Of a stretch of 64,000 nucleotides of DNA, positions 14,868 to 61,110 are shown piece after piece; within the stretch, counting starts at the first letter, position 1, and each line of letters begins with the position of its first letter. The notes under the pieces are model-generated. The model was not told where the DNA came from. It worked only from the letters and a program-made list of their open reading frames with translations, and searched no databases. Source of the stretch: an uncultured Verrucomicrobiae bacterium (lineage in GTDB: Bacteria; Verrucomicrobiota; Verrucomicrobiia; Limisphaerales; Palsa-1400); NCBI GenBank assembly GCA_963702845.1, contig OY969763.1, positions 1,760,001 to 1,824,000 of the forward strand. Reading direction: 5' to 3'. A program made the translations under genes and the position numbers.

Positions 14868-15070
14868 ATCAAGGTTCCTAAAGGTTTATCAAGGTTCTTA
14901 AAGCTTAATTTTTTTTTGAGCCTTGTTTTGGAAGGCGCTCAAAAAGCTAAGGCGGCAGGAGAAACTTAGGAGAAACAATTAACGTTAAAGAGTTTCTCAT
15001 TTGTTTCTCCTAACCTTCTCCATGTTTCTCATTTGAGAAGGAATGAGAAGCAATGTGCCACAATGAGCCA
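14868..15070. repeat. Cluster of helically phased (10-11 bp period) short direct-repeat arrays in the divergent intergenic region
   Basis: AAGGTT at 14871/14881/14891 and AAGCTT at 14901; AGGAGAAAC at 14957/14968; TTCTC at 14994/15005/15016/15026; TGAGAAG/TGAGAAG/TGTGCCA/TGAGCCA at 15034/15044/15054/15064. Confidence 0.8.
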
Positions 15071-22520: not shown

Positions 22521-23382
22521 CTACAACCTCGCCATCGCCGCTTCAATCTGCTTCAGCGTCTCCGGCGTCAGCCCTTGTTTCATTTGGGGTTCAACACTCG
22601 CCTTCTTCTCCGTCTGTACGTCATCATACTTCCGCACCAACAAATTCGCCCGCTTCCTCCTCGCCCGATCCTGCGCTTGATCACTCGCCACCCGCGCAAT
22701 TCGGAAAACCAACTCTGGCTTCGCTTCCACTAACTCCTTCAACGTCCCCCGATGCAAGTCCTGCAACGAACGCACAATCTGCATCCCAATCAACATCTCA
22801 TTAAACCGTTCAATTCCTTCTGCCTCATTCCGACAACTTCTCCACCGCCTTAACCACTCGGCCAACATCATTCCGAATCGCCGCCATCCGTTCCTGGTCG
22901 CGCAACCAATCCTGATGCCCGCCGCGTCGCCACGTCGACAAATCAAACTTCGTCACCCCATCAAACCCCTTCTTCTTCAGCGCCGCCGAAATCTCCACAT
23001 ATTTCATTCCATCCCGGATTTGTTCATTCAACCATTCCCGCGTCTCAAACGGCATCCGCGCAATCTTCCCCCACCGCTTCCTTCCCGGCAAAACCCCCGC
23101 CACCTCACCACAAACCGACTCCCTCGCCACGGCTGTAATCCGTGCTCCGCGTTTCTTCCATCGAACTTTACTTCCTCCCTCCACTGCAACCCGTGAACCC
23201 TCCGCCACCACCGTCACCGCCGCATCCCCAACCGCCACAGCCTCCGACGTAACCCCAACCGCGCCCGCCGCGGCATTCCCAGCCTCGACCGACGCTTCTT
23301 TACGCTCTAAAACCTGCCCCTCTTTCAAATCCGAAATTTCAAATTTGAAATTCTCTCCGTCATTGTTCTCGCTGGCATTCAT
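22521..23382 (-). CDS. Phage Mu gp27/DUF3486-like protein (copy 1), split by one frameshift near 22830
   Basis: N-term RKRWGKIARMPFETREWLNEQIRDGMKYVEISAALKKKG; C-term GLTPETLKQIEAAMARL; the joined halves align end-to-end with the 49767-50462 protein. Confidence 0.65.
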
Positions 23383-23488: not shown

Positions 23489-23580
23489 CTCAACCATGGT
23501 CGCCGGCCAAGCCGGCCTCGAGCCCAAAACGGCCCGATTCGTTCTTTGAAATAGCAACAAATACCTCGGCAAAGGCGCAA

Positions 23581-23620
23581 CCAGTTGCCGCCAGTAGTGA
23601 CTTGTAGCAACTAGTAGCAA
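23581..23620. repeat. 10-bp-period direct repeat array upstream of DUF3486-like copy 1
   Basis: ccagttgccg / ccagtagtga / cttgtagcaa / ctagtagcaa. Confidence 0.6.
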
Positions 23621-23637
23621 CATTCCCGCGCATTTTC

Positions 23638-23750
23638 CGGAGTGCGGACGTCCTCGCCCGCAGCAACGCACGATTGCAACCTGCGCGCCAGGAGATCCGC
23701 AGCGTCGACGTTGCATCCTGCCTTGCTGCGCCCGAGACTGGCGCACTCCG
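23638..23750. repeat. REP-like imperfect palindrome (family B)
   Basis: CGGAGTGCGGACGTCCTCGCCCGCAGCAA ... TTGCTGCGCCCGAGACTGGCGCACTCCG. Confidence 0.65.
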
Positions 23751-23792
23751 AAGAAACTGGATTAGTGCCCATGAATCACACCCCGTTTTTGA

Positions 23793-46389: not shown

Positions 46390-47864
46390 TTAAGCCGCCG
46401 CAATCTGCGGGGCCGCGGAGCGTTGGGCACGCAGGTCAGATTTGCGTTGGCGCAGGCTCTTGAAGAATTCGAATCCTTCGCGGCAACGGCGCACGCAAAC
46501 GTCCTTGTCCTCGAGCATCGTCTTGATGATGCGCAGAATCGGTTTCGGACGCAGATAGTAGGCGCGATAAAAACGATCCACCGCTTCGAAAATCTCGTCC
46601 TTCGGCAAGCCAGGATATTCCAGAGCGCTTTGTTGGAAGCCGTGGTCGTGCACGATGTCGGTCTTGTCCTTTTTGCGAAAACCAGCCGTTTTGACGGGCC
46701 ATCTCGAAAAGCTCCGTGCCGGGATAGGGCGCGGCGAGCGAAACCTGGATGCTGAACACGTCGAGTTCTTGCGCGAAACGAATCGTGTTCTCAATCGTTT
46801 GCTGCGTTTCGATCGGCAGACCCAGAATGAACGTGCCGTGAATGACCACGCCCGCCTTGTGGCAGGACTTGGTGAAGCGGCGCATTTCGTCCATCGTCAC
46901 GCCCTTCTTGATGCGCGTGAGGATGTCGTCGTTGCCCGATTCGTAACCGACCAGGAACAAGCGCAGACCGGAGTCCTTGAATTGTTTAATCGTATCGTAA
47001 TCGAGGTTGGCGCGGCTGTTGCAGGACCAGGTCAAGCCAAGCGGCGCGAGTTTCTTGGCGATTTCGCGAGCGCGCGGCAGGTTCGCGGTAAAGGTATCGT
47101 CATCGAAGAAGAATTCCGGCTACTTGCGGGAACAGCTTCTTCGCGTAGGCCATTTCATCGGCGACATTTTCGGGCGAGCGCACGCGGTATTTGTGTCCGC
47201 CGATCGTCTGCGGCCACAGGCAGAAGCTGCATTGCGCCGGGCAACCGCGTCCGGTGTAGAGGCTGATGTAAGGGTGCAGCAGGTAACCGATGAAATACTT
47301 TTCGATCTCGCAGGTCGCGCTTGTAGGTGTCGATCACCCACGGGAGCACGTCCATGTTCGAAATCATCTCGCGCTCTTTGTTGTGGATGATTTTGCCATC
47401 GGCATTGCGATAGGAAAGTCCATCGATTTTGTCGAGCGGGCGGCCTTCGGCAACTTCTTTGCAGGTGAAATCAAATTCTTTGCGGCCGACCCAATCGATG
47501 GATGCCGACGCCTTCAGCGTCTCGGTCGGAAGCACCGCGGCGTGTGCGCCGACGAAACCGATTTTGACTTTGGGGTTCTGCTGCTTGATCGCTTCGGCGA
47601 CTTTGCAATCGTTCTTCAACGACGGCGTCGAGGTGTTGATGATGACGTGATCGTACCTGCAGCGCCTCGGCCAGGCATTGCTTGATGTCGATGTCGATGC
47701 GGCGGGCAATCGAGCAGCCGGCTGTTCGGCGTGAGCGCGGCTGGTTGCGCGAGCCACGTCGGATACCAGTACGACGTCACTTCGCGACGCGCCTGGTAGC
47801 GCGCACCGGCGCCGCCGTCAAATCCATCAAAACTTGGTGGTGAAAGAAACAGGGTCTTGCTCAT
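46390..47864 (-). CDS. hpnJ: Hopanoid biosynthesis-associated radical SAM protein HpnJ, broken by several frameshifts (probable sequencing errors)
   Basis: MSKTLFLSPPSFDGFDGGAGARYQARREVTSYWYPTWLAQPAAL; TSTPSLKND; YTGRGCPAQCSFCLWPQT (CxxxCxxC, read across frames); LVGYESG; QVSLAAPYPGT; FYRAYYLRPKPI. Confidence 0.88.
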
Positions 47865-47918
47865 CTTAGTAAATCGGGTCTTCGTTTGTTGAACCAACGA
47901 ACATTCGGAAATTATCTG

Positions 47919-49331
47919 CTACTCCGCTTTTTTATTGGCCGCAATTTTGGCCAGCAACTCATCGCGTTGGGTCGTGTCACCGGTGCCGCAGGAACCGCCT
48001 TCTTTGTGATCGTGCGGTTCTTCGCGGCGTTGGAAAACGGATTGCGCGCCATTCATGGCTGCACGTGGCGAATTGATCGCCGCCTTCGCTTCGGCCAGAT
48101 GGCCTTTGCCGATCGAAACGCCGTTGAACGCTTTGACATTCGCGCCAGCGTAGTAAGGTTTGGGCTTGGAACTGAAATTATATTTCATGTTCTTCCAGTT
48201 ATCGGTCGGGTTGCTCGAGAGCGCGCCGCTCGGATCGTAGCCGCAATGGACCATGCAATTCTCGCAACGCGGGTCGCGCGCGACGCCGTCCACCACGCCG
48301 TATTTGTTCCAATCCACCTTCGTGAGCATTTCCTGATAACCGGCGTAATGCCCGTCGGTCATGAGATAGCAGGGGGCCTTCCAACCTTTAATATTGCGGG
48401 TGGGAATGGCCCAGGCGGTGCAGGTCAATTCGCGTTTGCCCGCGAGAAATTCCTGGTAAACGACCGTGCCGAAAATCGTAAAACGTTCGCCCCATTCCTG
48501 AATTTTCGCGAATTTTTCGCGCGTCATTTTGCGCGTGAGGAAAAAGTCTTCGGGCTGTTTGCCCAGGCGCGAGACCATGTCTTTCTTGGCGGCGTCGTAT
48601 TCGTAGCCGGGAGAAATCGTGTGGCCATCAACTTCCATCGACGAGAAGAATTCGAACATCTCGCTGATTTCTTTGACGTCGGTTTCTTTGTAAACCGTCG
48701 TGTTGGTCGCGACCTGATAACCAAGAATTTTGGCCATCTTGATCGCTTCGACGCATTCCTTGAAAACGCCTTCGCGTTCGACAATCAAATCGTGCGTGTA
48801 TTCCAGACCGTCGATGTGGACGTTCCAATACATCCACTTCGTCGGGCGAATCACAACGCGACCATCGTTTTTGCCTTTGCGAATTGTTTCGACGTCTTTT
48901 TCGGAAACTAATTTTTTCTCGAGCAATTCCGCGATCTTCGGCTCAAGCGCCGGGCTGTAAATGGCAGCCATGTAATCGCGCATCTTTTTGCGCATGAACA
49001 TGCCGTTCGTGCAGACGTAAACGATGCGGCCTTGTTTGAGAATGCCGTCGATGCATTCCTCGATCTTCGGATAAATCAGCGGTTCACCGCCGCAAATGGA
49101 CACCATCGGCGCATCGCATTCCTGCGCGGCACCGAGGCAATCCTCCAGCGACATCATGTCCTTCAGGCTGGTGGAATATTCGCGAATACGCCCGCAGCCG
49201 GTGCAGGTCAGATTGCAGGTGTGGAGCGGTTCCAGCTGCAGCACCATGGCAAATTTTGGTGTGCGGCGGATGATCTTATGTTTGACAATATGAGCGGCGA
49301 TTTTCGCCGTCAACGCGAGTGGAAATCGCAT
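47919..49331 (-). CDS. hpnH: Adenosyl-hopene transferase (radical SAM)
   Basis: LEPLHTCNLTCTGCGRI, SICGGEPL, CTAWAIPTRN, APCYL, RCENCMVHCGY. Confidence 0.92.
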   Translation of the reverse strand: MRFPLALTAKIAAHIVKHKIIRRTPKFAMVLQLEPLHTCNLTCTGCGRIREYSTSLKDMMSLEDCLGAAQECDAPMVSICGGEPLIYPKIEECIDGILKQGRIVYVCTNGMFMRKKMRDYMAAIYSPALEPKIAELLEKKLVSEKDVETIRKGKNDGRVVIRPTKWMYWNVHIDGLEYTHDLIVEREGVFKECVEAIKMAKILGYQVATNTTVYKETDVKEISEMFEFFSSMEVDGHTISPGYEYDAAKKDMVSRLGKQPEDFFLTRKMTREKFAKIQEWGERFTIFGTVVYQEFLAGKRELTCTAWAIPTRNIKGWKAPCYLMTDGHYAGYQEMLTKVDWNKYGVVDGVARDPRCENCMVHCGYDPSGALSSNPTDNWKNMKYNFSSKPKPYYAGANVKAFNGVSIGKGHLAEAKAAINSPRAAMNGAQSVFQRREEPHDHKEGGSCGTGDTTQRDELLAKIAANKKAE

Positions 49332-49336
49332 ATCGA

Positions 49337-49570
49337 TTAGTTGAGTTGCACTGAATCCGTTGTGTCCCCTGCCTTATGCGTCAAAGAAGCGGTCTGAGTA
49401 GCTGTAGCTGCCGCCGGTTGCTTCTCGGCAGGCTTGGTTTGTCCGATCCCCGGCAAAAAGAACATCAGAGGATTGATCGTCTGCTGGGTATTGATACCGG
49501 TGCAGCCGGTGCCGACGATTATAAGCGTCGCCACCAATCCGAACGTTCTTGTAAACCATCCTAATTTCAC
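49337..49570 (-). CDS. Small hypothetical lipoprotein
   Basis: Hydrophobic N-terminus with IVGTGC lipobox-like motif; ends 5 nt before the hpnH start. Confidence 0.55.
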   Translation of the reverse strand: MKLGWFTRTFGLVATLIIVGTGCTGINTQQTINPLMFFLPGIGQTKPAEKQPAAATATQTASLTHKAGDTTDSVQLN

Positions 49571-49766
49571 TGATCGAAGTATAGGACTCGGTCAAGGGTT
49601 GGCAATACTTTAATCGCGTAGGGGAATACACGAGCGCAACCGGTGGTCGTATGGATGCCCCGACACCGCAACGGGCAGCATACGCCACCGGTCCGCGATG
49701 CATTCTTTGACCGTCGTCAACTATTCGCAAATTCCGTGTGTTCATAGATTTGGCCTTTCTGTTTTG

Positions 49767-50462
49767 TTAGATTTTCATTTCGCGTTTGATGCGTTCCAGT
49801 TGCTCGCGTGTTATTCCGCCTTTCTGTGGGACTTTGGGGCGGTTTGGTTTCTTCGAGACGTCAGCGTATTTTTTCAATTCCAGTGCGGCGCGGTCGCGCA
49901 TGATGGCGTTGCGTTCGTGGACGGCATGGGCGCGGATGAGACGAAAAAAGTTTTCGGGTTTTTCGTTCATGAGGGCGCGCAGTTCCTGGATGTTGCAGTT
50001 TTTGATGATGTCGTGGATTTGCAGCGCGATATCGAAGTCGGAACTGTCGCGGACGGCTTCGCGATTGGATTTGTCGGATTTTGTGCGCGAGGCGGCCAAG
50101 GCTTCGGCATGGAGACGTTTGTTTTCGGTCGCGACTTGTTCGGCGAGCCAATCGGTGTAGCCAGAGTTTTTCCAGGAGCGGAGTTGTTTGTGAGTGATGT
50201 TTTCGCAGTGGCGCTCTTTCAAGCCGGCCAAAATTTGGGTGTAGGTGAGGCCGTCGCGAAAGGCGGTGTTGATCCATTTGCGAGTGCGCGGGGAAAGGCT
50301 TTGGATAGTGCCCCAGCGGCGGCGATTTGACGCGGGTTTGGTTGTTTCACTGGTGGCGTTGGGTTCAGCCGTCCCTTCGGGACAGGTCGCCGGAGCAGAC
50401 GTAGGAGTGATGTTGTTGACGTTGGCAACATCGGTGTTTTCAAGTTGTTCAGGTGTGTTCAT
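49767..50462 (-). CDS. Phage Mu gp27/DUF3486-like protein (copy 2, intact)
   Basis: RRRWGTIQSLSPRTRKWINTAFRDGLTYTQILAGLKE...WKNSGYTDWL; C-term GGITREQLERIKREMKI. Confidence 0.65.
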   Translation of the reverse strand: MNTPEQLENTDVANVNNITPTSAPATCPEGTAEPNATSETTKPASNRRRWGTIQSLSPRTRKWINTAFRDGLTYTQILAGLKERHCENITHKQLRSWKNSGYTDWLAEQVATENKRLHAEALAASRTKSDKSNREAVRDSSDFDIALQIHDIIKNCNIQELRALMNEKPENFFRLIRAHAVHERNAIMRDRAALELKKYADVSKKPNRPKVPQKGGITREQLERIKREMKI

Positions 50463-50480
50463 AGGTTTGATACAAATATT

Positions 50481-50600
50481 TTTTTTGGGTTTTAGTGGAT
50501 GCAGGTGGTCGGTGTTGGGCGAGATTGGATGTTAATGAACGAAAGTGGGCACCCCCCCCCCCCTTTGGTCGAAAATGGATGAAAGTGGGCAATCGCGGGT
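50481..50600. repeat. Helically phased 10-bp repeat array starting ~20 bp upstream of DUF3486-like copy 2
   Basis: TGG in the same register in decamers starting 50481, 50491, 50501, 50511, 50521, 50541, 50561, 50571, 50581 (TGA at 50531, CGG at 50591); GAAAGTGGGC occurs twice. Confidence 0.8.
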
Positions 50601-51014
50601 GGTAAGCAAATCAGAGCCAGCAGCGACAAAGAATTGTCGCGGCTTGCTACGTTCGGTGCGGGAATCGGAATCGCCGCGTTGTGTTTATGTTGCATGCATC
50701 GCATAACGCGACCGATTGTGCCATAAAGTAGCTACGCGTCAAAAACTGTAGGGAAAGGAGGGAAGCCGGGGAAAGAAATGATAGTTTTTTTGAGAAAAAG
50801 GTGGTGGTTTTAGAGGGTTGGCATGGAAGTTGAGTCAACGCAAAGGCGCGAGGATGCAAAGACGCAAAGAGGACTGGAAACACGGACGGAGAAAACCACG
50901 GAGACACAGAGGTTGTTGGAAAGGAAATATTGCCATCCTTGGCCTGCTTTCGGTTGACTGTCCGCAGACACGGGTCCAGCATCAACCAACACGCGAATAC
51001 ACCTGAAACTGAGG

Positions 51015-51061
51015 CATATGTTATTATCAGGTCAAATCAGCATAATAATGAATAGTTAGCC
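51015..51061 (+). mobile_element. attI-like site heading an integron cassette array
   Basis: GTTAGCC core at 51055 with no upstream RYYYAAC stem; AT-rich, with TTATTAT/ATAATAA inverted motif; exact complement of the first cassette's R'' GGCTAAC. Confidence 0.6.
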
Positions 51062-51074
51062 GTTTTCACGCGCC

Positions 51075-51635
51075 ATGATTTTCGGAGACCCAAAAGACTT
51101 TGCGATTGAGGCGTATCACGAACCCTCCGGCTCTCAGTATGGTGGGTTTGGTAGAATGTGCATTCACATCCAGGGCATGTCCCTCGGCGATATTCGCGAC
51201 AATCACTGCTCATTGGTTCACGCTACGGACCGCATTCGAGAGGTGGCTGCTGATTTCGAGTCGCTCTGGCATGCTAGTTTCGCCGGCTTATCGGACGCGG
51301 ATGTGTTTGGTCTCATTGACCGGGAGATTTACACGGGTGATGCGTCCGAGAGTGGTCCGAGCTATGATGCCTCCGATTTTCTCACAAACACAGGCGAGAT
51401 GTTCGATGGCACGAAGACCTTCATCATCTTCCGACCGCCCGACCGGATTCACATTCTGTTTCGTCTTCGGGATGACACGTTTGGAGCTGCTTCATGTAGC
51501 GTCCAGAGTTTCCGCGGAGTTGCCGACGCCTTTGTTAGCTGGTTCGAGGAGCAGGTGCGAATGACTGCTCCACCATTTTTTCCCATCAACCCATTTGACC
51601 TGAATGAGAAAGTTCCAGACGACCGAAACGGCTAA
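51075..51635 (+). CDS. Cassette 1: Imm42-like polymorphic-toxin immunity protein
   Basis: N-terminus MIFGDPKDFAIE...GRMCIHIQGMSLGD resembles Imm42 (from memory, not searched); stop codon lies inside attC R''. Confidence 0.55.
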   Translation: MIFGDPKDFAIEAYHEPSGSQYGGFGRMCIHIQGMSLGDIRDNHCSLVHATDRIREVAADFESLWHASFAGLSDADVFGLIDREIYTGDASESGPSYDASDFLTNTGEMFDGTKTFIIFRPPDRIHILFRLRDDTFGAASCSVQSFRGVADAFVSWFEEQVRMTAPPFFPINPFDLNEKVPDDRNG

Positions 51636-51722
51636 CCATCGCGCTACACTCAAAGTCGGGAATGCCTTCTGTTACATATCGGGCGTCATTGGCACAGCGC
51701 GAGTAAGCGCGGGTCGTTAGGC
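51630..51722 (+). mobile_element. attC site 1
   Basis: GGCTAAC...CGCGCTACACTC...GAGTAAGCGCG...GTTAGGC. Confidence 0.88.
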
Positions 51723-51734
51723 GGCATCACGCGT

Positions 51735-52241
51735 ATGCAATGTTTTACACCAAGTGAGTGTTCGGAATGGTTGCAGCAGCGTGGGATTATTGAGTTTCCA
51801 TATGGCACCAAACGAGAGGCGATGACGCTTCAGTTTGAACCGCCACGCAACCCTCGGAAGCTTACTGCGTTTACTCGTGAGTTATTCGGCGCTTTTGGAG
51901 AGTTTTCAGGAGCGTTGTTGCAGTTCACGGATTGGCCGCTTTACCAGCCGGATGAGATGGCTTTGATTGTTTCGTTACGGCGCAGTCATGGCGAGCAGCG
52001 TTGGTTGATTGATGCCCCCGGCCATTTATTTGCTCCCACAGAGATGGCAGAAGCTATTGGGCATTATTATTTGGCTTCGATTTTTGATTGGAGCGTCTAT
52101 TTGTATATGGCATCTGGAGCGGGCACAGTTTATTTCTGGGAAGGCGACCTGATTGATGTATTTGGATTCGACAAAAGTATCAGCCAAAACATTCACGAAC
52201 TTGTTAAGAGTTATGATTTGCGAGTTACATATGGCGCGTAG
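51735..52241 (+). CDS. Cassette 2: hypothetical protein
   Basis: 168-aa ORF filling the space between attC1 and attC2. Confidence 0.8.
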   Translation: MQCFTPSECSEWLQQRGIIEFPYGTKREAMTLQFEPPRNPRKLTAFTRELFGAFGEFSGALLQFTDWPLYQPDEMALIVSLRRSHGEQRWLIDAPGHLFAPTEMAEAIGHYYLASIFDWSVYLYMASGAGTVYFWEGDLIDVFGFDKSISQNIHELVKSYDLRVTYGA

Positions 52242-52335
52242 CAATCCGCTGGGGACAACGCCGGTTGGGTGTTGCCAGTTCCGCTTTGCGGACTACGGTT
52301 TTAGGTCCGGCGCGCCGGAGCTCTGGACGTTAGGA
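52236..52335 (+). mobile_element. attC site 2 (degenerate)
   Basis: GCGTAGC (2 changes from GCCTAAC)...GCCGG...CCGGC...GTTAGGA. Confidence 0.7.
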
Positions 52336-52346
52336 AGCGGCAAAGT

Positions 52347-52487
52347 ATGCGAAGTGTCCTGTCGATATTTTCAGCAATTTGGTCGGCAACATTAGGGCGG
52401 CCTCTGTCATGGCAGACCGCTCTCGTGGTGGTGATCATTATTGCGCTTGCGATTGCAGTGCTGCTCCCATTTCTAGCGTCGACATGA
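52347..52487 (+). CDS. Cassette 3: 46-aa membrane peptide
   Basis: MRSVLSIFSAIWSATLGRPLSWQTALVVVIIIALAIAVLLPFLAST*, placed between attC2 and attC3. Confidence 0.6.
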   Translation: MRSVLSIFSAIWSATLGRPLSWQTALVVVIIIALAIAVLLPFLAST

Positions 52488-52503
52488 ACAATTCAATTTT
52501 ATT

Positions 52504-52663
52504 GCCTAACCAGAGCGCTGGAGATTTGAACAAATTATTTTGCTCTTCGCTGCCGCGAAGTGCGGACGGCGAGTTGACGATTCCTCCTTCGCCATGGCTA
52601 TGGAGGACGGGGCTTTTACAATCCGTGAGTCAGTGGGCGGCCGCCGTTGAGTTTGAGTTAGGT
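52504..52663 (+). mobile_element. attC site 3, enlarged by a 39-bp insertion and a loop hairpin
   Basis: GCCTAAC-CAGAGC-GCTGGA[39 bp]GCGGACGGC...GCCGCCGTTGAGT...GTTAGGT. Confidence 0.8.
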
Positions 52664-52667
52664 GAAC

Positions 52668-52892
52668 ATGAAGAACATTCAGCTATCTTCGCAGGAGAGT
52701 GACCGCAAAGTCGCAAGAATTGCATCACTCATCTTTATGGGTGTCGCTTGGCTGTCTCTGACGGCATTTTTAGCCTGGTACCTCACCACAAATGGAAATG
52801 CGTTGAGCCACAGCATCGTCGTCGTTAGCATCTTTTCGATTCCCCTGCTGCTTATTCCATTTCAGTTGTGGCGCTATTTCAAAAACAAATGA
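52668..52892 (+). CDS. Cassette 4: 74-aa two-TM membrane protein
   Basis: ATG 4 nt after the attC3 core; two hydrophobic helices; ends 4 nt before attC4. Confidence 0.7.
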   Translation: MKNIQLSSQESDRKVARIASLIFMGVAWLSLTAFLAWYLTTNGNALSHSIVVVSIFSIPLLLIPFQLWRYFKNK

Positions 52893-52896
52893 CTAA

Positions 52897-53028
52897 GGCT
52901 AACCAGAGTGCTGGAGATTTGAACAAATTATTTTGCACGTCGCTACCGCGAAGCGCGGACGGCGGGACGACGCCGCCTTTGCAATCGTTGAGTCAGTGGC
53001 CCGCCGCCGCTGAACTGAATATTTAGGC
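52897..53028 (+). mobile_element. attC site 4, with the same 39-bp insertion and a mutated core (TTTAGGC)
   Basis: GGCTAAC-CAGAGT-GCTGGA[39 bp]GCGGACGGCGGG...CCCGCCGCCGCT...TTTAGGC. Confidence 0.78.
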
Positions 53029-53044
53029 GACTAGCAAACGTCAC

Positions 53045-53215
53045 ATGAAACGCCATTTTTACGCAACAAACGAGGATTTGCTACAGGTTATCGAAATGCC
53101 GAACGAAAGCACAAAGTTGCCTATACGCTCACAGGCGCTTACGACCAATCCGCCCAAATCGCTCGTGGCGCCATCATTGATGGAACGCAGACCGGCGAAA
53201 TTGACCTGAATTGAT
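53045..53215 (+). pseudogene. Cassette 5 remnant: truncated or frameshifted ORF, no downstream attC
   Basis: MKRHFYATNEDLLQVIE... begins 16 nt after the attC4 core and degrades quickly. Confidence 0.4.
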
Positions 53216-53334
53216 CAGAGCGGTCTCGCGATATCCGTTTCGAATCGGGATGCAGAGCATCGCCGACAAAATGGCTGGCGGCGCGAGGTCGACTAAGTGA
53301 GGTCCTTAATCGGAGTCGCGCGACGTGCGCTGGG

Positions 53335-53820
53335 CTACTGTTTAACTTCAGTCGCGATCCGTTTCTCCGGCGGTTTCCAATTGACGTTGATGCCGCCGGC
53401 GGTGATGAGTTTGCAGCTCTGGATTTCTTTCAGGGCATCGGTCTCGGTCACCGGCTTGGGCGCGACGTGCAAGAAAGTCGCTCCGGGAAGGACGGTCAAT
53501 CGGATGTATTGGACCTGGTTTTCTTTGAGTGTCAGTTGCGTTTTTTCGGCCGATTCGGTCGTGCATTGAACCGTGTAATCGCCGGGTTTGCGGTCGACAT
53601 AGAAGAAGCAGCCGGGCTGACATTTGCCGATGGCTGTGTCGTTGATGAAAACTTCCGGCTGCGTCATGGTGCCGAAGAGCTTGCTCGGGCGATAGAACCA
53701 GACGCGGGCGTCGCCTTTGGGCGGCGGTGTCAGGGCGGTGGTATAGGTTTTATAACTTGGTCCGCTGGCGCAGCCGGCAAAGCCGGCGCAAAGAATAACG
53801 AGAAGTGTGACATGTTTCAT
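53335..53820 (-). CDS. DUF2846-like lipoprotein
   Basis: GFAGC lipobox; ARVWFYRPSK...PEVFIND...GCFFYVDRKPGDY; SD GGAGG before ATG 53820. Confidence 0.8.
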   Translation of the reverse strand: MKHVTLLVILCAGFAGCASGPSYKTYTTALTPPPKGDARVWFYRPSKLFGTMTQPEVFINDTAIGKCQPGCFFYVDRKPGDYTVQCTTESAEKTQLTLKENQVQYIRLTVLPGATFLHVAPKPVTETDALKEIQSCKLITAGGINVNWKPPEKRIATEVKQ

Positions 53821-54010
53821 CTGGTTCCTCCTGTTAACGTTGATTTTACAACCAACGTTGTCGGCGCACCGCCGACGCGTGGAACGAAACACGAAAAGCC
53901 TTGGTTTGACAGTGTGGATTTTCTTGGTTGTTGGCTGCTGGAATCCCTGTGGTTGATTGAGGCTTTGTCCGCGTCAACAAGCGAGTGCGGTGCGTCAAAT
54001 CGGGACGAAC

Positions 54011-57536: not shown

Positions 57537-60089
57537 ATGAGATTAAGATTCTTCTCCATTACGGCACGGCTTTTTGCCGTTCTCGCTGCTTCGGCAATTT
57601 TCGCTCACGCAGAGCAAAAACCGTCGCAGGAACAAATCGAAAGCATCATCGCTCGCGTCACGGGTGAGCTGATGCAGCGCTCCCACTTCTCGCATCACCC
57701 GCTGGACGCGGAGATGTCGGCGAAGTTTTTGGACCGCTACCTCGACACGCTCGATCCGGTTCACCTGACCTTTCTTCAGAGCGATGTTCAGGACTTCGAG
57801 AAATATCGCACCACGCTCGGGCCGCTGACCAAAAAGGGCGACACCAAGCCGGCGCACGTCATTTTCGAGCGTTTTCTCCAACGCGCCGAACAGCGTAATG
57901 AACTGTCCACCAACCTGCTCGCGAAAGGTAATTTCGACTTCACCGGTCACGAAAAATTCCTGGCTAGTCGCAAAAACGCGCCCCAACCCAAGGACATGGA
58001 CGAAGCGAAAAAGATTTGGGAAGAAGAAGTGCGCTACGAATTCTTGCAGGAAAAACTTTCCGCGCCTGACATCAAATTGTCCGGTGATTTGAAGTCTGAG
58101 CCGTCGAAGTTCGTCATTACGATCACGACGAATAAAATGCATCCGCAGAATTTCGATCTGTTGCCGAAGAATTTTTACGATGCTGATGGCAAACCCGTTG
58201 CGTTCCTTCACGTTGAAGCGAATAAAACGAACGCAATCGTCGAAATTCCGAAGTTAAAAGGGGACAACCTGCAAAACTTCAAACGACCGTTCTATAGCGA
58301 AGACGGCAAAGAAATCGGTTCGATCATCTCGACGAATAAATCGACCAATTTCGTTGGCACGGTGCAGTTGAATCGCAAGAACTTCACGGACATTACGGAT
58401 ACATTGATCAAGCGCTACGGCCGGTTGATGAAGAGTTACAAGGATCTCGACCCGGATTCGGTTCTCGAACTGTATCTCGGTGCGCTCGCGCGCGCCTACG
58501 ACCCGCATTCTGAATACATGGGCCATGCCCAAACCGAGAACTTCAACATCTCGATGAAGCTTTCGCTCTTCGGCATCGGCGCCGTGCTCACCTCGGAAGA
58601 CGGTTTTTGCAAGGTCAAGGAACTCGTGCCCGGGCCTGCGATGAAGAGCAAAAAGATCAAGGCAAACGACAAAATTGTCGCTGTCGCGCAAGGTGATAAA
58701 GAAGCCGTCGATGTCATCGGTATGCGTCTCGATAAGGTGGTTGAGCAGATTCGCGGCCCGAAGGGCAGCGAAGTGCGCCTGACCATCGTTCCGTCCGATG
58801 CCCCGGATACTTCCACTCGCGAAGTGGTCACGCTCTATCGCGATCAAATCAAACTTGAAGACCAGGAAGCCAAAGCGCGTGTCTATGATACGAAGGCCGC
58901 CAATGGCAATCCCGTTCGCATTGGTGTTATTGATTTGCCATCCTTCTACGCTGACACGACGGGCGGCAAACGTTTGGCTAGCCAGGACGTCGCGTCCACC
59001 GCGACCAGCACGACGCTCGATTGCGCGCGTTTGATTCGTCGCATGAAAAAAGAGGGCGTCACCGGTATCATTCTCGACCTCCGCAAAAACGGCGGCGGTT
59101 ATCTCGAAGAAGCCATTGGTTTGACCGGGCTGTTCATCACCAAGGGGCCGGTTGTTCAGACCAAAGAACATAACGGTGAAATCGTCACTGAATCTGATCC
59201 TGATCCCGGCGTTCTTTGGGACGGTCCGTTGATCGTGCTCACGAGTCGCTTCAGCGCTTCAGCCTCGGAAATTTTGGCCGGTGCATTGCAGGATTACGAC
59301 CGTGCGTTGATCGTCGGTGAAAAATCGACCTTTGGCAAAGGCACTGTGCAAACGCTCGCCGGGCTGGCTAATTATATTGATTCGAGCCGCCTGCCCAAGG
59401 ATTACGATCCCGGCACGCTGCGCCTGACCATCCGCAAGTTCTATCGCGCGGGCGGTTCCTCGACGCAGCTGAAAGGCGTCGTTTCCGACATCGCGATGCC
59501 ATCCGTTCACGACGAATGGGAAGTTGGCGAAGGTTCGATGGAAAACGCGCTGCCCTGGGATGAAGTGCCCAGCGCCGATCCAGATAATCTCCGTCGCGTG
59601 AAGCCATACGTCACTGCCTTGCGCGAACACTCGCAAAAGCGCGTGAACACGGAAAAAGATTTTCAATACGAACGCGATCGTATCGCCGAGTACAAGAAAA
59701 CTCAGGCCGACAAAACTGTCTCTTTGAACGAAGCTGATCGCCTCGCCGAAAAGAAGCAGCAACAGGTCAAAGAAGATGCGCGCACGAAGGAAATCGCGTC
59801 TCGCAAGAAGCCGACGGAAAAAGTTTACGAAATCACTCAGGAAAACGTAAACCTCTCGACATTGCAGCCGCCGAAATCGAAAAACAGCGACACCGCGAAA
59901 AACGACAGTCCCACTCCCGCTCCCACGACCAGCGCTGCTGCCACCGATGAGGACGCGCCTGACGTCGGCGAAGAAGCCGTGGCCAACGAAGCCCGCTTGC
60001 GCGAGGCAAAGAACATCCTGATCGATTACATTTCGATGTTGAAGAAGGCCGACTCAGTCGTTGCGCACGAAGCTACGACTGCGAAGTAA
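57537..60089 (+). CDS. prc: Carboxy-terminal processing protease (tail-specific protease, S41)
   Basis: LDPVHLTFL, YDPHSEY, GIGA (PDZ), IRGPKGS, LDLRKNGGG, SASASEI, TFGKGTVQ, KFYRAGGSSTQLKGV. Confidence 0.92.
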   Translation: MRLRFFSITARLFAVLAASAIFAHAEQKPSQEQIESIIARVTGELMQRSHFSHHPLDAEMSAKFLDRYLDTLDPVHLTFLQSDVQDFEKYRTTLGPLTKKGDTKPAHVIFERFLQRAEQRNELSTNLLAKGNFDFTGHEKFLASRKNAPQPKDMDEAKKIWEEEVRYEFLQEKLSAPDIKLSGDLKSEPSKFVITITTNKMHPQNFDLLPKNFYDADGKPVAFLHVEANKTNAIVEIPKLKGDNLQNFKRPFYSEDGKEIGSIISTNKSTNFVGTVQLNRKNFTDITDTLIKRYGRLMKSYKDLDPDSVLELYLGALARAYDPHSEYMGHAQTENFNISMKLSLFGIGAVLTSEDGFCKVKELVPGPAMKSKKIKANDKIVAVAQGDKEAVDVIGMRLDKVVEQIRGPKGSEVRLTIVPSDAPDTSTREVVTLYRDQIKLEDQEAKARVYDTKAANGNPVRIGVIDLPSFYADTTGGKRLASQDVASTATSTTLDCARLIRRMKKEGVTGIILDLRKNGGGYLEEAIGLTGLFITKGPVVQTKEHNGEIVTESDPDPGVLWDGPLIVLTSRFSASASEILAGALQDYDRALIVGEKSTFGKGTVQTLAGLANYIDSSRLPKDYDPGTLRLTIRKFYRAGGSSTQLKGVVSDIAMPSVHDEWEVGEGSMENALPWDEVPSADPDNLRRVKPYVTALREHSQKRVNTEKDFQYERDRIAEYKKTQADKTVSLNEADRLAEKKQQQVKEDARTKEIASRKKPTEKVYEITQENVNLSTLQPPKSKNSDTAKNDSPTPAPTTSAAATDEDAPDVGEEAVANEARLREAKNILIDYISMLKKADSVVAHEATTAK

Positions 60090-61030
60090 GCAATTGTTCG
60101 CCGATGCGGATGGGGTTGCCCTGAAGAAATTCAGCGGCACCCATCTGCCGGCCGCCTTCGCGTTGTAACCTGACAATGCGCAAAGCGTCCGCTCCACACG
60201 CGACGGTGATTCCTGAATTGTCAGCCGCGAGCACGGCCCCGGGTTTGCCTTGAGCATCCGCGACCTCCGCTTGCCAGACTTTTAACAGGCGTGCCTTGTC
60301 GTTGGTTTTTTGGAAAGTGAAAGCTCCCGGCCACGGCGTGAATGCGCGAATTCGGTTTTGCAACACGCGAGCGGGTTGCGTCCAATCAAGCTGGCCGTCT
60401 TCCTTTTTGATTTTTTTAACATGCGTCGCATTGAGCGTGATCTTGCGCGCGCGCCTGGATTTTTCCCGCCGCAAAATCAATCAAGGTCGGTAGTAAAAAC
60501 TCCGCGCCGACAATCGCCAACTTATCGTGCAACGTCGCCGCGTCGTCATCGGCCTCAATGGGGATCGCGCCCTGGCTGATAATCGGCCCGGTATCCAACC
60601 CTTCATCCATCTGCATGATCGTGACGCCAGTTTCAGGATCGCCATTGAGCAACGCCGCCTGGATCGGGGCCGCGCCGCGGTATTTTGGCAGCAACGACGT
60701 GTGAACGTTAATACAACCAAACTTCGGCGTGTCCAAAATGGCACGTGGCAATATTTGGCCGTAGGCAATGACCACGATGTAATCCGGCGCGAACTGTTTG
60801 AGTTGTTCGATGAACTGCGGTTCGCGAGCGCGTTCCGGTTGCAGCACAGGAATGTTGGATGCCAGTGCGAGTTTCTTCACTTCGGACTGTTGCAGCTTGA
60901 GGTCCCGTCCTTTCGGTCGATCTGGCTGCGTGACGACCGCTTGCACGACAAATTCCGGCGAATTCAGCAACGCCTGCAAACTGGCGCAAGCCAGTTCGGC
61001 GGTTCCCATGAAAATGACGCGCAAAGGCAT
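60073..61030 (-). CDS. fmt: Methionyl-tRNA formyltransferase, one frameshift near 60430
   Basis: IFMGT, VVTQPDRPKGR, NVHTSLLPKYRGAAPIQ, MDEGLDTG; continues in a second frame ATHVKKIKKEDGQLDW...RAFTPWPGA. Confidence 0.93.
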
Positions 61031-61034
61031 GAAG

Positions 61035-61110
61035 CAGTATTGAGTATTCAGTATCCAGTTTTCAGTAAAGCGCAGTTATGAACTGATTACTGATCGCTTA
61101 AAACTACTGG
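61035..61110. repeat. Heptamer tandem repeats with a partial inverted counterpart
   Basis: cagtatt/gagtatt/cagtatc/cagtttt/cagtaaa ... actgatt/actgatc. Confidence 0.6.

What the first reader, a model, noticed from the sequence alone, without database searches (positions are those of the whole stretch)
49767..50600. Candidate new system: solo small-terminase-like (Mu gp27/DUF3486) genes paired with 10-bp-phased DNA arrays
Seen: starting ~20 bp upstream of the start codon, 9 of 12 consecutive decamers have TGG in the same register, two more have TGA/CGG, and the phase continues across a poly-C tract. A diverged paralog at 22.5 kb has a different phased array, and a third array cluster lies at 14.9 kb. 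Neither gene has a large terminase, portal, capsid or transposase neighbour. Established: Mu gp27 is the presumed small terminase subunit with an N-terminal DNA-binding region, and small terminases are oligomers that wrap DNA. Inference: a dispersed multi-copy module in which each protein binds a cognate phased array. Possible roles are autoregulation, a pac-like site that hijacks or jams helper-phage packaging, or a domesticated nucleoid function. The family assignment is from motif recall, not a search.
Basis: partly seen in the sequence, partly recalled or inferred. Interest (0 to 1): 0.78.

Follow-up and report, generated by a model that had tools for sequence, protein, structure and literature searches.

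The report
Scattered terminase cassettes with matching arrays
A gene for the DNA-recognising part of a phage packaging motor has spread, without the rest of the phage, through many Verrucomicrobiota chromosomes, usually beside a short DNA repeat spaced one helical turn apart whose spelling changes together with the protein's DNA-reading helix, which points to an undescribed kind of self-addressed genetic cassette.

Summary
The gene and array are real: 9 of 12 decamers carry TGG in register. The protein is a Mu-gp27-like small terminase (TerS) homologue.

Corrections: the phase across the poly-C tract is absent from all 8 sister copies. The 22.5-kb paralog is frameshifted. The family is not only solo: 7 of 13 copies precede a large terminase, and the genome holds a tail-less head-gene cluster sharing this gene's promoter.

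Arrays lie beside 9 of 14 family genes versus 72 of 1285 control genes, and beside 41 of 76 homologues elsewhere versus 2 of 25 phage-borne ones. Array spelling tracks the recognition helix beyond phylogeny. Gene-less arrays abound, and the genes sit at different sites in congeners.

Best reading, inferred: a selfish TerS-plus-address cassette that tags DNA for packaging (0.45); an operator role is the main rival. Binding, packaging and movement are unshown. Earlier scan notes describe similar layouts on other DNA (unchecked).

The parts
49767..50462 (-). Intact gene for a 231-aa Mu-gp27-like small terminase homologue: variable 40-aa N-terminus, three-helix HTH (recognition helix about residues 90-99), long helices behind it
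   Evidence: pLDDT 87; HTH aligns to G20C TerS, Z 6.0, rmsd 2.1, 54 residues
50486..50598 (.). 10-bp-phased array (core YCCR on the gene strand): 7 units next to the start codon, a G/C tract (50552-50563), 3-4 further units
50463..50486 (-). A-rich stretch between array and start codon
   Evidence: sequence; A/T tracts border many arrays
50599..50714 (-). Conserved non-coding leader shared with the 8 gene-less sister copies; no Rfam match
50705..50801 (-). Promoter module Y (three TTTCCC repeats, then TTGACG-16-CACAAT at 50742-50715); 33 copies in the genome, also in front of the head-gene units
50430..50778 (-). About 350-bp repeat unit (promoter, leader, array, first codons): 9 copies at 81-86% identity, only this one keeps the whole gene
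49736..49752 (-). 17-nt near-copy (16 of 17) of the gene's own start context just behind the stop; no terminase remnant detected behind it; unexplained
22521..23382 (-). Paralog broken by a frameshift near 22828
23552..23640 (.). Short phased array of the paralog (core TGCTAC on the gene strand), next to a REP-like palindrome at 23633-23755
14871..15070 (.). Gene-less cluster of three short arrays upstream of the glutamyl-tRNA synthetase gene; an 87% copy lies at genome position 1.025 Mb

Best explanation
A phage small-terminase gene has become the core of a roughly 1-kb dispersed cassette: promoter, terS, and an array of that protein's own binding word repeated every 10 bp. SHOWN: the association, its near-absence in phages, the word-helix co-variation, purifying selection, turnover between sites, shared promoters with head genes. 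INFERRED: the protein forms a ring whose HTH domains read successive 10-bp units and wrap the array (P about 0.8 for cognate binding); co-resident cassettes diverge in word and helix so that each reads its own address. INFERRED, weaker: the bound ring does what TerS does and loads a large terminase (adjacent, chromosomal or from an infecting phage), so that packaging starts at the array and carries the cassette and flanking chromosome into heads made by a related phage or by the genome's own tail-less head genes. Gene-less arrays are non-autonomous copies served in trans. How a cassette lands at a new chromosomal site is not explained.
For: Arrays beside 9 of 14 family genes vs 72 of 1285 size- and gap-matched control ORFs (Fisher p 1e-8); 22 of 40 near windows vs 0 of 73 far windows in 12 other genomes; 41 of 76 homologues vs 3 of 76 at periods 11/13. 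Co-variation: partial correlation peaks on the recognition helix among 152 windows (r 0.25; best window elsewhere 0.146; 2 of 1000 max-over-window permutations), in both main clades (rank 3 and 2 of 152), and over 20 non-overlapping nearest pairs (rho 0.75). The closest relative (52%) has the same promoter and array position but another word and helix. Of 50 arrays, 31 lie at the 3' end of or inside the gene, where an operator makes little sense and pac sites can lie (P1 pac lies inside pacA, PMC10028697). 7 of 13 copies precede a TerL; the TerL alignment keeps Walker-like and acidic nuclease positions by eye. Promoter Y also heads the protease-capsid and adaptor-portal-TerL units. Capsid protein is 89-90% identical in two congeners, dN/dS 0.10-0.12; TerS pairs 0.22-0.55. 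Adjacent TerS HTH motifs are about one DNA turn apart (PMC4737164).
Against: Phage-borne homologues mostly lack arrays (2 of 25, both marginal), so the array is not simply the inherited pac site. Most homologues elsewhere have no TerL in the fetched locus (7 of 76 do), one genome with 12 TerS matches has one distant TerL match and one with 6 has none, and this capsid gene was found in only 6 of 24 same-family genomes. In the genome itself only 3 of 7 TerL-linked copies pass the array threshold against 6 of 6 solo copies. Headful packaging alone would not make 0.35-1 kb dispersed copies. The pre-chosen test for stronger conservation of array cores than spacers in the 8 gene-less copies failed (p 0.64). 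The head cluster's TerL has an in-frame TAG and no tail genes were found. The wrapping model is itself disputed (PMC9611059). No binding, expression or particle data.
Confidence: 0.45

Rival explanations
1. Exapted transcription factor: each TerS-like protein wraps its array as an operator or roadblock, repressing its own gene and controlling host genes behind gene-less copies, which act as portable promoters.
For: In the window the array lies between promoter and start codon. 28 of 31 Y copies and 20 of 24 X copies face a co-oriented ORF (the ORF set is crude and includes the family's own genes). 19 of 50 arrays are upstream. Co-variation fits this equally. Most homologues have no TerL nearby.
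Against: 31 of 50 arrays are downstream of or inside the gene. None of 7 congener loci has the gene at the matching site, unlike a stable regulator. The helical C-terminal part is kept across the family. Facing a gene may only reflect selection against antisense transcription.
Confidence: 0.27
2. Selfish element moved by a non-packaging enzyme: TerS on its array marks or organises the element end for a transposase or recombinase acting in trans, for example a REP-associated Y1 transposase.
For: Short dispersed copies with a shared left edge (7 of 8 sister copies have an aligned piece starting at one position or within 15 bp of it). About 1.1-kb units at 69-90% identity among unrelated flanks in another genus. 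REP-like palindromes border the 22.5-kb copy. Seven Y1 transposase matches in the genome, one beside a family gene.
Against: No terminal inverted repeats or target duplication around the window cassette; right edges are ragged; no enzyme gene consistently linked; at two matched sites the genome holds a different cassette rather than an empty site.
Confidence: 0.12
3. Anti-phage jamming: damage- or infection-induced TerS variants poison the terminase of related temperate phages, and arrays act as decoy sites.
For: Phages with close TerS relatives and full head modules exist. Module X heads five family genes as well as WYL regulators and an imuB/dnaE2-type operon, which suggests stress induction. 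Packaging-blocking defences are described (listings and abstract starts of PMC10884400 and 10.1101/2025.02.27.640495).
Against: Phage homologues mostly lack arrays, so decoys would have no phage reader. A private word-helix code is not needed for jamming. No PADLOC match in 11 of 11 paralogs.
Confidence: 0.12
4. Neutral prophage debris among unrelated minisatellites.
For: Two of 13 copies are frameshifted, stubs are common, and some arrays are perfect tandem expansions. Regulators, helicase, head and terminase genes at 5.22-5.25 Mb look like a prophage broken up by host genes.
Against: dN/dS below 0.6 in 23 of 23 TerS pairs with finite dS and 0.10-0.18 for capsid and portal; enrichment and helix co-variation; presence in 23 of 24 same-family genomes.
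Confidence: 0.04

Closest known systems
Mu gp27-like small terminase (Pfam PF11985 / DUF3486; PHROG 426) with its large terminase
   Same: Sequence family; HTH plus long helices; top BFVD match is a DUF3486 protein (prob 0.93, E 0.02); phage homologues sit before TerL, portal, protease and capsid.
   Different: Chromosomal, multi-copy, often without TerL; carries 10-bp arrays that phage-borne homologues mostly lack; recognition helix diversified.
pac modules of P1 (pacA with hexamer repeats) and SPP1/SF6 (G1P with box A repeats)
   Same: TerS next to or overlapping repeated words (PMC10028697 passages; PMC4737164 passages).
   Different: Those are single sites in a phage genome; SF6 recognition is described as largely sequence-independent. 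Here dozens of differently spelled arrays are scattered over a chromosome with a helix-word code.
Phage satellites that redirect packaging with their own TerS (SaPI/PICI; capsid-forming PICIs)
   Same: Own TerS as specificity factor; tail-less head genes in the genome (recalled, plus listings and abstract starts of PMC10085698 and 10.1101/2022.09.08.507074).
   Different: No integrase, replication genes or att-bounded island at the cassette; about 1 kb; many copies per genome; head genes in a separate single locus.
Gene transfer agents (RcGTA)
   Same: Chromosomal phage head genes under purifying selection, spread over several transcription units.
   Different: RcGTA TerS binds DNA weakly and without sequence preference (PMC6854486 section 9); GTAs have tails (recalled). 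Here many sequence-specific TerS, no tail genes found.
MITEs and REP/RAYT mosaics
   Same: Many short non-coding copies in intergenic mosaics; gene-bearing and gene-less versions.
   Different: No terminal inverted repeats or target duplication found; the linked gene is a terminase subunit with no catalytic domain.

Membership tests
Mu gp27-like small terminase family (protein) | Profile match to PF11985 / PHROG 426 | tested here: met
   Window protein: PHROG 426 E 2e-4, no Pfam match. Family: 81 of 104 match PHROG 426; 6 of 11 match PF11985, best E 7e-7.
Mu gp27-like small terminase family (protein) | N-terminal HTH followed by helical oligomerisation region | tested here: met
   Model pLDDT 87; HTH aligns to G20C TerS, Z 6.0, rmsd 2.1, 54 residues, top rank but a middling Z.
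Small terminase (function) | Forms a ring and binds/stimulates a large terminase | not testable with these tools
   Needs biochemistry.
Phage or prophage packaging module | terS directly followed by terL, portal and capsid genes | tested here: not met
   No TerL, portal or capsid match in the window.
Phage pac site | Same array present in phage-borne homologues | tested here: not met
   2 of 25 phage-borne homologues reach the threshold, both marginal.
Phage pac site | Packaging starts at the site | not testable with these tools
   No particle sequence data.
PICI / cf-PICI satellite | Integrase, excision and replication genes in one island with the TerS | tested here: not met
   Flanks are a hopanoid radical-SAM-type gene, a small ORF, an Imm42 gene and other host-type genes.
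Gene transfer agent | Conserved chromosomal head genes under purifying selection | tested here: met
   Capsid 89-90% in two congeners, dN/dS 0.10-0.12; same gene order in both as far as their contigs reach. Found in only 6 of 24 same-family genomes.
Gene transfer agent | Tail genes in the genome | tested here: inconclusive
   No PF10145 match; ORFs of four related phage loci hit only head and terminase genes. One tail family tested; genome 90% complete.
Gene transfer agent | Particles that package host DNA and transfer it | not testable with these tools
   Needs culture or virome data.
MITE / insertion sequence | Terminal inverted repeats and target-site duplication | tested here: not met
   None at the cassette edges; ragged right ends.
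Known RNA element | Rfam match in leader or array | tested here: not met
   0 matches at E up to 1 in 49300-51100.
Known anti-phage system | PADLOC profile match | tested here: not met
   0 of 11 paralogs.

The most novel reading that the evidence does not exclude
A distributed, stress-inducible, addressable gene-transfer system. A panel of TerS variants, each reading its own 10-bp array, licenses packaging from more than a hundred chromosomal addresses into tail-less heads made from one conserved locus, under two shared promoters (X with WYL regulators and damage-tolerance genes, Y with head genes). The helix-word code would also be a natural library of programmable ring-shaped DNA binders.
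Probability: 0.25. Interest if true: 0.92.

Novelty: categorically new. Interest (0 to 1): 0.74.

Why it matters
How small terminases achieve sequence-specific recognition is open: a review says neither wrapping nor threading explains it (PMC9611059 passages). This family offers about 40 natural protein-array pairs whose word changes with three to four helix positions, so the question becomes directly testable by swaps. If the cassettes start packaging, they are a new route of gene flow in a little-cultured phylum; if they regulate, they show a packaging protein turned into a family of transcription factors with portable operators. The 'categorically new' label refers to the cassette layout and code, which matched nothing in ten paper searches (open-access library only) or in Pfam, PHROGs, NCBIfam, PADLOC and Rfam. 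The protein itself belongs to a known family and the function is inferred.

Tried and rejected
Four-copy complex prediction: no answer, used neither way. No RNA holder listed, so no reads were laid. Foldseek against PDB gave no match at E below 0.001; G20C TerS ranked third at E 1.2; sequence search of solved structures gave nothing relevant. No tblastn match in the GenBank phage collection. The first metagenome scan found nothing; the second found 2 loci. Mu-type portal PF06074 and capsid PF10124 were not found; the portal control rang nowhere. The idea that the arrays belong to GxxExxY genes (association recalled) was dropped: no PF13366 match in the genome. The ORF behind the stop is not a detectable TerL remnant. 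Core-versus-spacer conservation in gene-less copies: not significant for the pre-chosen core (p 0.64) or the CCA triplet (p 0.16); the two C positions took only 2 of 55 changes, a post-hoc remark. Poly-C phase argument rejected. Module X is not shown to be the LexA box: no lexA motif hit in my crude scan, and the paper read concerns Bacteroidetes. Samples from six genomes without a family match (40-140 kb each) held no convincing array, against 2-3 convincing ones per 200 kb in two positive genomes (judged by eye; three GC-rich samples had as many hits at control periods): consistent but small. Rows dropped: 6 loci excluded by eye as noisy or mis-called in the 'curated' co-variation run (4 of them above threshold); the uncurated run gave the same result and one search used uncurated data. 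My two TerL profiles missed at least one divergent TerL (locus L080), so 'no TerL' counts are upper bounds on solo status. Supplements of papers were not read.

Full report
OBSERVATION. The window is part of a 6.03-Mb single-contig genome, about 90% complete. Records carrying close relatives of one of its genes are mostly titled Verrucomicrobiota (7 of 9). The ORF at 49767-50462 (-) encodes 231 aa. Nine of twelve decamers from 50480 carry TGG in register, with TGA, CGG and a C tract in the other three; 0 of 20,000 shuffles match the count. The phase across the C tract is peculiar to this copy: eight sister copies have a 3-6 nt tract and a 13-14 bp jog. The 22.5-kb paralog is frameshifted and has an intact 89% twin elsewhere. 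The 14.9-kb cluster has no such gene. The window holds no TerL, portal, capsid or Y1 transposase match.

THE PROTEIN. It matches PHROG 426 (small terminase) at E 2e-4 and no Pfam family. Of 104 aligned relatives 81 match PHROG 426; 6 of 11 paralogs match Pfam Phage_Mu_Gp27. The model (pLDDT 87) has a three-helix HTH and long helices. Its best structural matches are a viral DUF3486 protein and the HTH of G20C TerS (Z 6.0); both are weak alone but agree. The family has 3441 clusters at 50% identity. It was found in 23 of 24 same-family genomes (two or more matches in 20), 3 of 16 other families, and 27 of 201 genomes of the order at a stricter cut-off.

THE GENOME. Thirteen copies have the HTH, plus one C-terminal half. 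Seven precede a Mu-type large terminase, one of them also a portal; six are solo, two of these frameshifted. A second terminase family has seven TerL copies with their own TerS. One locus at 5.24-5.25 Mb holds protease, HK97-type capsid, adaptor, portal and a TerL split by TAG, interleaved with other genes. No tail gene was found. The capsid protein is 89-90% identical in two congeners with dN/dS 0.10-0.12, but was found in only 6 of 24 same-family genomes. Period-10 arrays are common: 147 regions against 15-51 at periods 8, 11, 13 and 14; 85 of 91 strict ones lie outside long ORFs; 127 of 186 candidates fall in 20 multi-copy families. Period-7 repeats are equally common and were not studied.

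THE CASSETTE. Promoter, leader, array and the first few codons of the window gene form a 350-bp unit with 9 copies at 81-86% identity; only this copy keeps the gene. Its promoter module Y (33 copies; sigma-70-like match) also heads three other family genes and the head-gene units. A second module X, a palindrome with 28 copies, heads five family genes, second-family TerS genes, at least two WYL regulators and an imuB/dnaE2-type operon, and one copy points at recA from about 500 bp (recA called by a recalled motif). That X is damage-induced and Y is a late promoter is inference. The site upstream of the flanking operon holds other DNA in two same-family genomes. None of 7 congener loci has a family gene at the matching site here (mostly one flank available), and at two sites this genome carries a different gene-less cassette. 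In another genus a 1.1-kb solo unit recurs at 69-90% identity, mostly among unrelated flanks, three pairs sharing a flank.

GENE-ARRAY LINK. Arrays (score 24 or more) lie by 9 of 14 family genes against 72 of 1285 control ORFs (p 1e-8). In 12 other genomes 22 of 40 near windows against 0 of 73 far windows pass (far windows are mostly coding). In the larger set 41 of 76 homologues pass, 3 of 76 at control periods, and 7 of 76 have a detected TerL. Of 25 distinct homologues in viral contigs only 2 pass, marginally (p 4e-5). The arrays therefore belong to the chromosomal offshoot. Of 50 arrays, 19 are upstream and 31 at the 3' end or inside the ORF.

THE CODE. For 37 curated and 40 uncurated dereplicated pairs, array similarity was correlated with each 8-column protein window after removing overall similarity. 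The peak falls on the recognition helix, with top single columns W-5, W-7, W-1 and one in the N-terminal arm (1 and 0 of 2000 permutations). With a tree built without the helix as covariate, r is 0.25 against 0.146 for the best window elsewhere (2 of 1000 max-over-window permutations); the helix ranks 3 and 2 of 152 in the two main clades; 20 non-overlapping nearest pairs give rho 0.75. These pairs are not strictly independent and array profiles rest on 2-7 units. The closest relative (52%) keeps promoter Y and the array position but has another word and helix. TerS pairs show dN/dS 0.22-0.55 over whole ORFs (23 of 24 pairs with finite dS). Against this, array cores are not significantly better kept than spacers in the gene-less copies.

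MECHANISM. Cognate binding is likely (about 0.8). TerS rings have 8-12 subunits (PMC9611059 passages) with HTH motifs about one DNA turn apart (PMC4737164 passages), which fits 7-12 units at 10 bp, though wrapping is disputed. For what binding does I favour a pac-like address (0.45): most arrays lie at the gene's 3' end or inside it, as P1 pac lies inside pacA (PMC10028697 passages); TerL, portal and head genes share the cassette's promoters in this genus; and divergence of word and helix among co-resident copies is what selfish elements needing cis preference would show. The weak points are that phages lack the arrays, that many host genomes lack a close TerL or this capsid, that solo copies carry arrays more often than TerL-linked ones, and that packaging does not explain short dispersed copies. 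An operator role (0.27) fits the window copy well. Movement by a trans-acting enzyme (0.12), jamming (0.12) and debris (0.04) follow.

KNOWN SYSTEMS AND NOVELTY. It works most like a phage or satellite pac module but fails membership of prophage modules, PICIs and MITEs, and differs from RcGTA, whose TerS binds without sequence preference (PMC6854486 abstract and section 9). Ten paper searches found no description (listings and abstract starts only, apart from the five papers cited by passage, including PMC8565304). Earlier notes of this scan report lone TerS-TerL pairs in this genome and TerS-plus-array cassettes on other DNA, one with helix co-variation. They are unchecked and are not counted as support, but they suggest the layout recurs. 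Interest 0.74.

Noticed in passing
L065:8000-19320 (G000 5.24-5.25 Mb): Tail-less head-gene cluster (protease, capsid, adaptor, portal, TerL with TAG) interleaved with host and accessory genes, three units each behind promoter Y; conserved in the genus; head genes also sit among host genes in G007, G034 and G037.
   Followed up: partly
L208 (G000 5.222-5.228 Mb): XRE-type HTH gene divergent from a small excisionase-like ORF, and a DnaB-N/AAA_25 gene behind promoter Y, 12-17 kb from the head cluster.
   Followed up: partly
L202, L205, L206 and 25 further sites in G000: Palindrome module X (GGACA-N5-TGTCC core) before WYL regulators, an imuB/dnaE2-type operon and, at a distance, recA: a candidate damage-response operator for this genus.
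   Followed up: partly
G000 0.13, 1.72, 2.25, 2.81, 4.30, 4.83, 6.00 Mb: Second terminase family, seven TerL copies; five in primase/AAA islands, two alone among host genes with module X upstream and a 10-bp array behind the TerL.
   Followed up: partly
G000 genome-wide: 193 regions of period-7 repeats and several REP-like palindrome families form mosaics with the period-10 arrays in intergenic regions.
   Followed up: no
window 49736-49752 and 50453-50469: The gene is flanked by a 17-nt direct repeat that contains its start codon; unexplained.
   Followed up: partly
window 50840-50915: Degenerate 7-9 bp repeats upstream of promoter Y, of a type seen at many other cassette edges.
   Followed up: no
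window 51075-53892: Run of short unrelated ORFs (one Imm42 match) beside the cassette, resembling a cassette array.
   Followed up: no
window 46390-47897: The radical-SAM-type gene downstream of 47919 appears as several overlapping ORF pieces, whereas relatives have one ORF (L061, L062): frameshifts or assembly errors.
   Followed up: no
L093 vs window 57754-61070: A congener carries a TerS-TerL cassette next to the genes at window 57.8-61.1 kb, where this genome has none.
   Followed up: partly
P0065, P0078, P0088, P0102, P0124, P0131, P0133: Family members of 380-540 aa carry a recurring N-terminal helical-looking region and long low-complexity linkers before the HTH.
   Followed up: no
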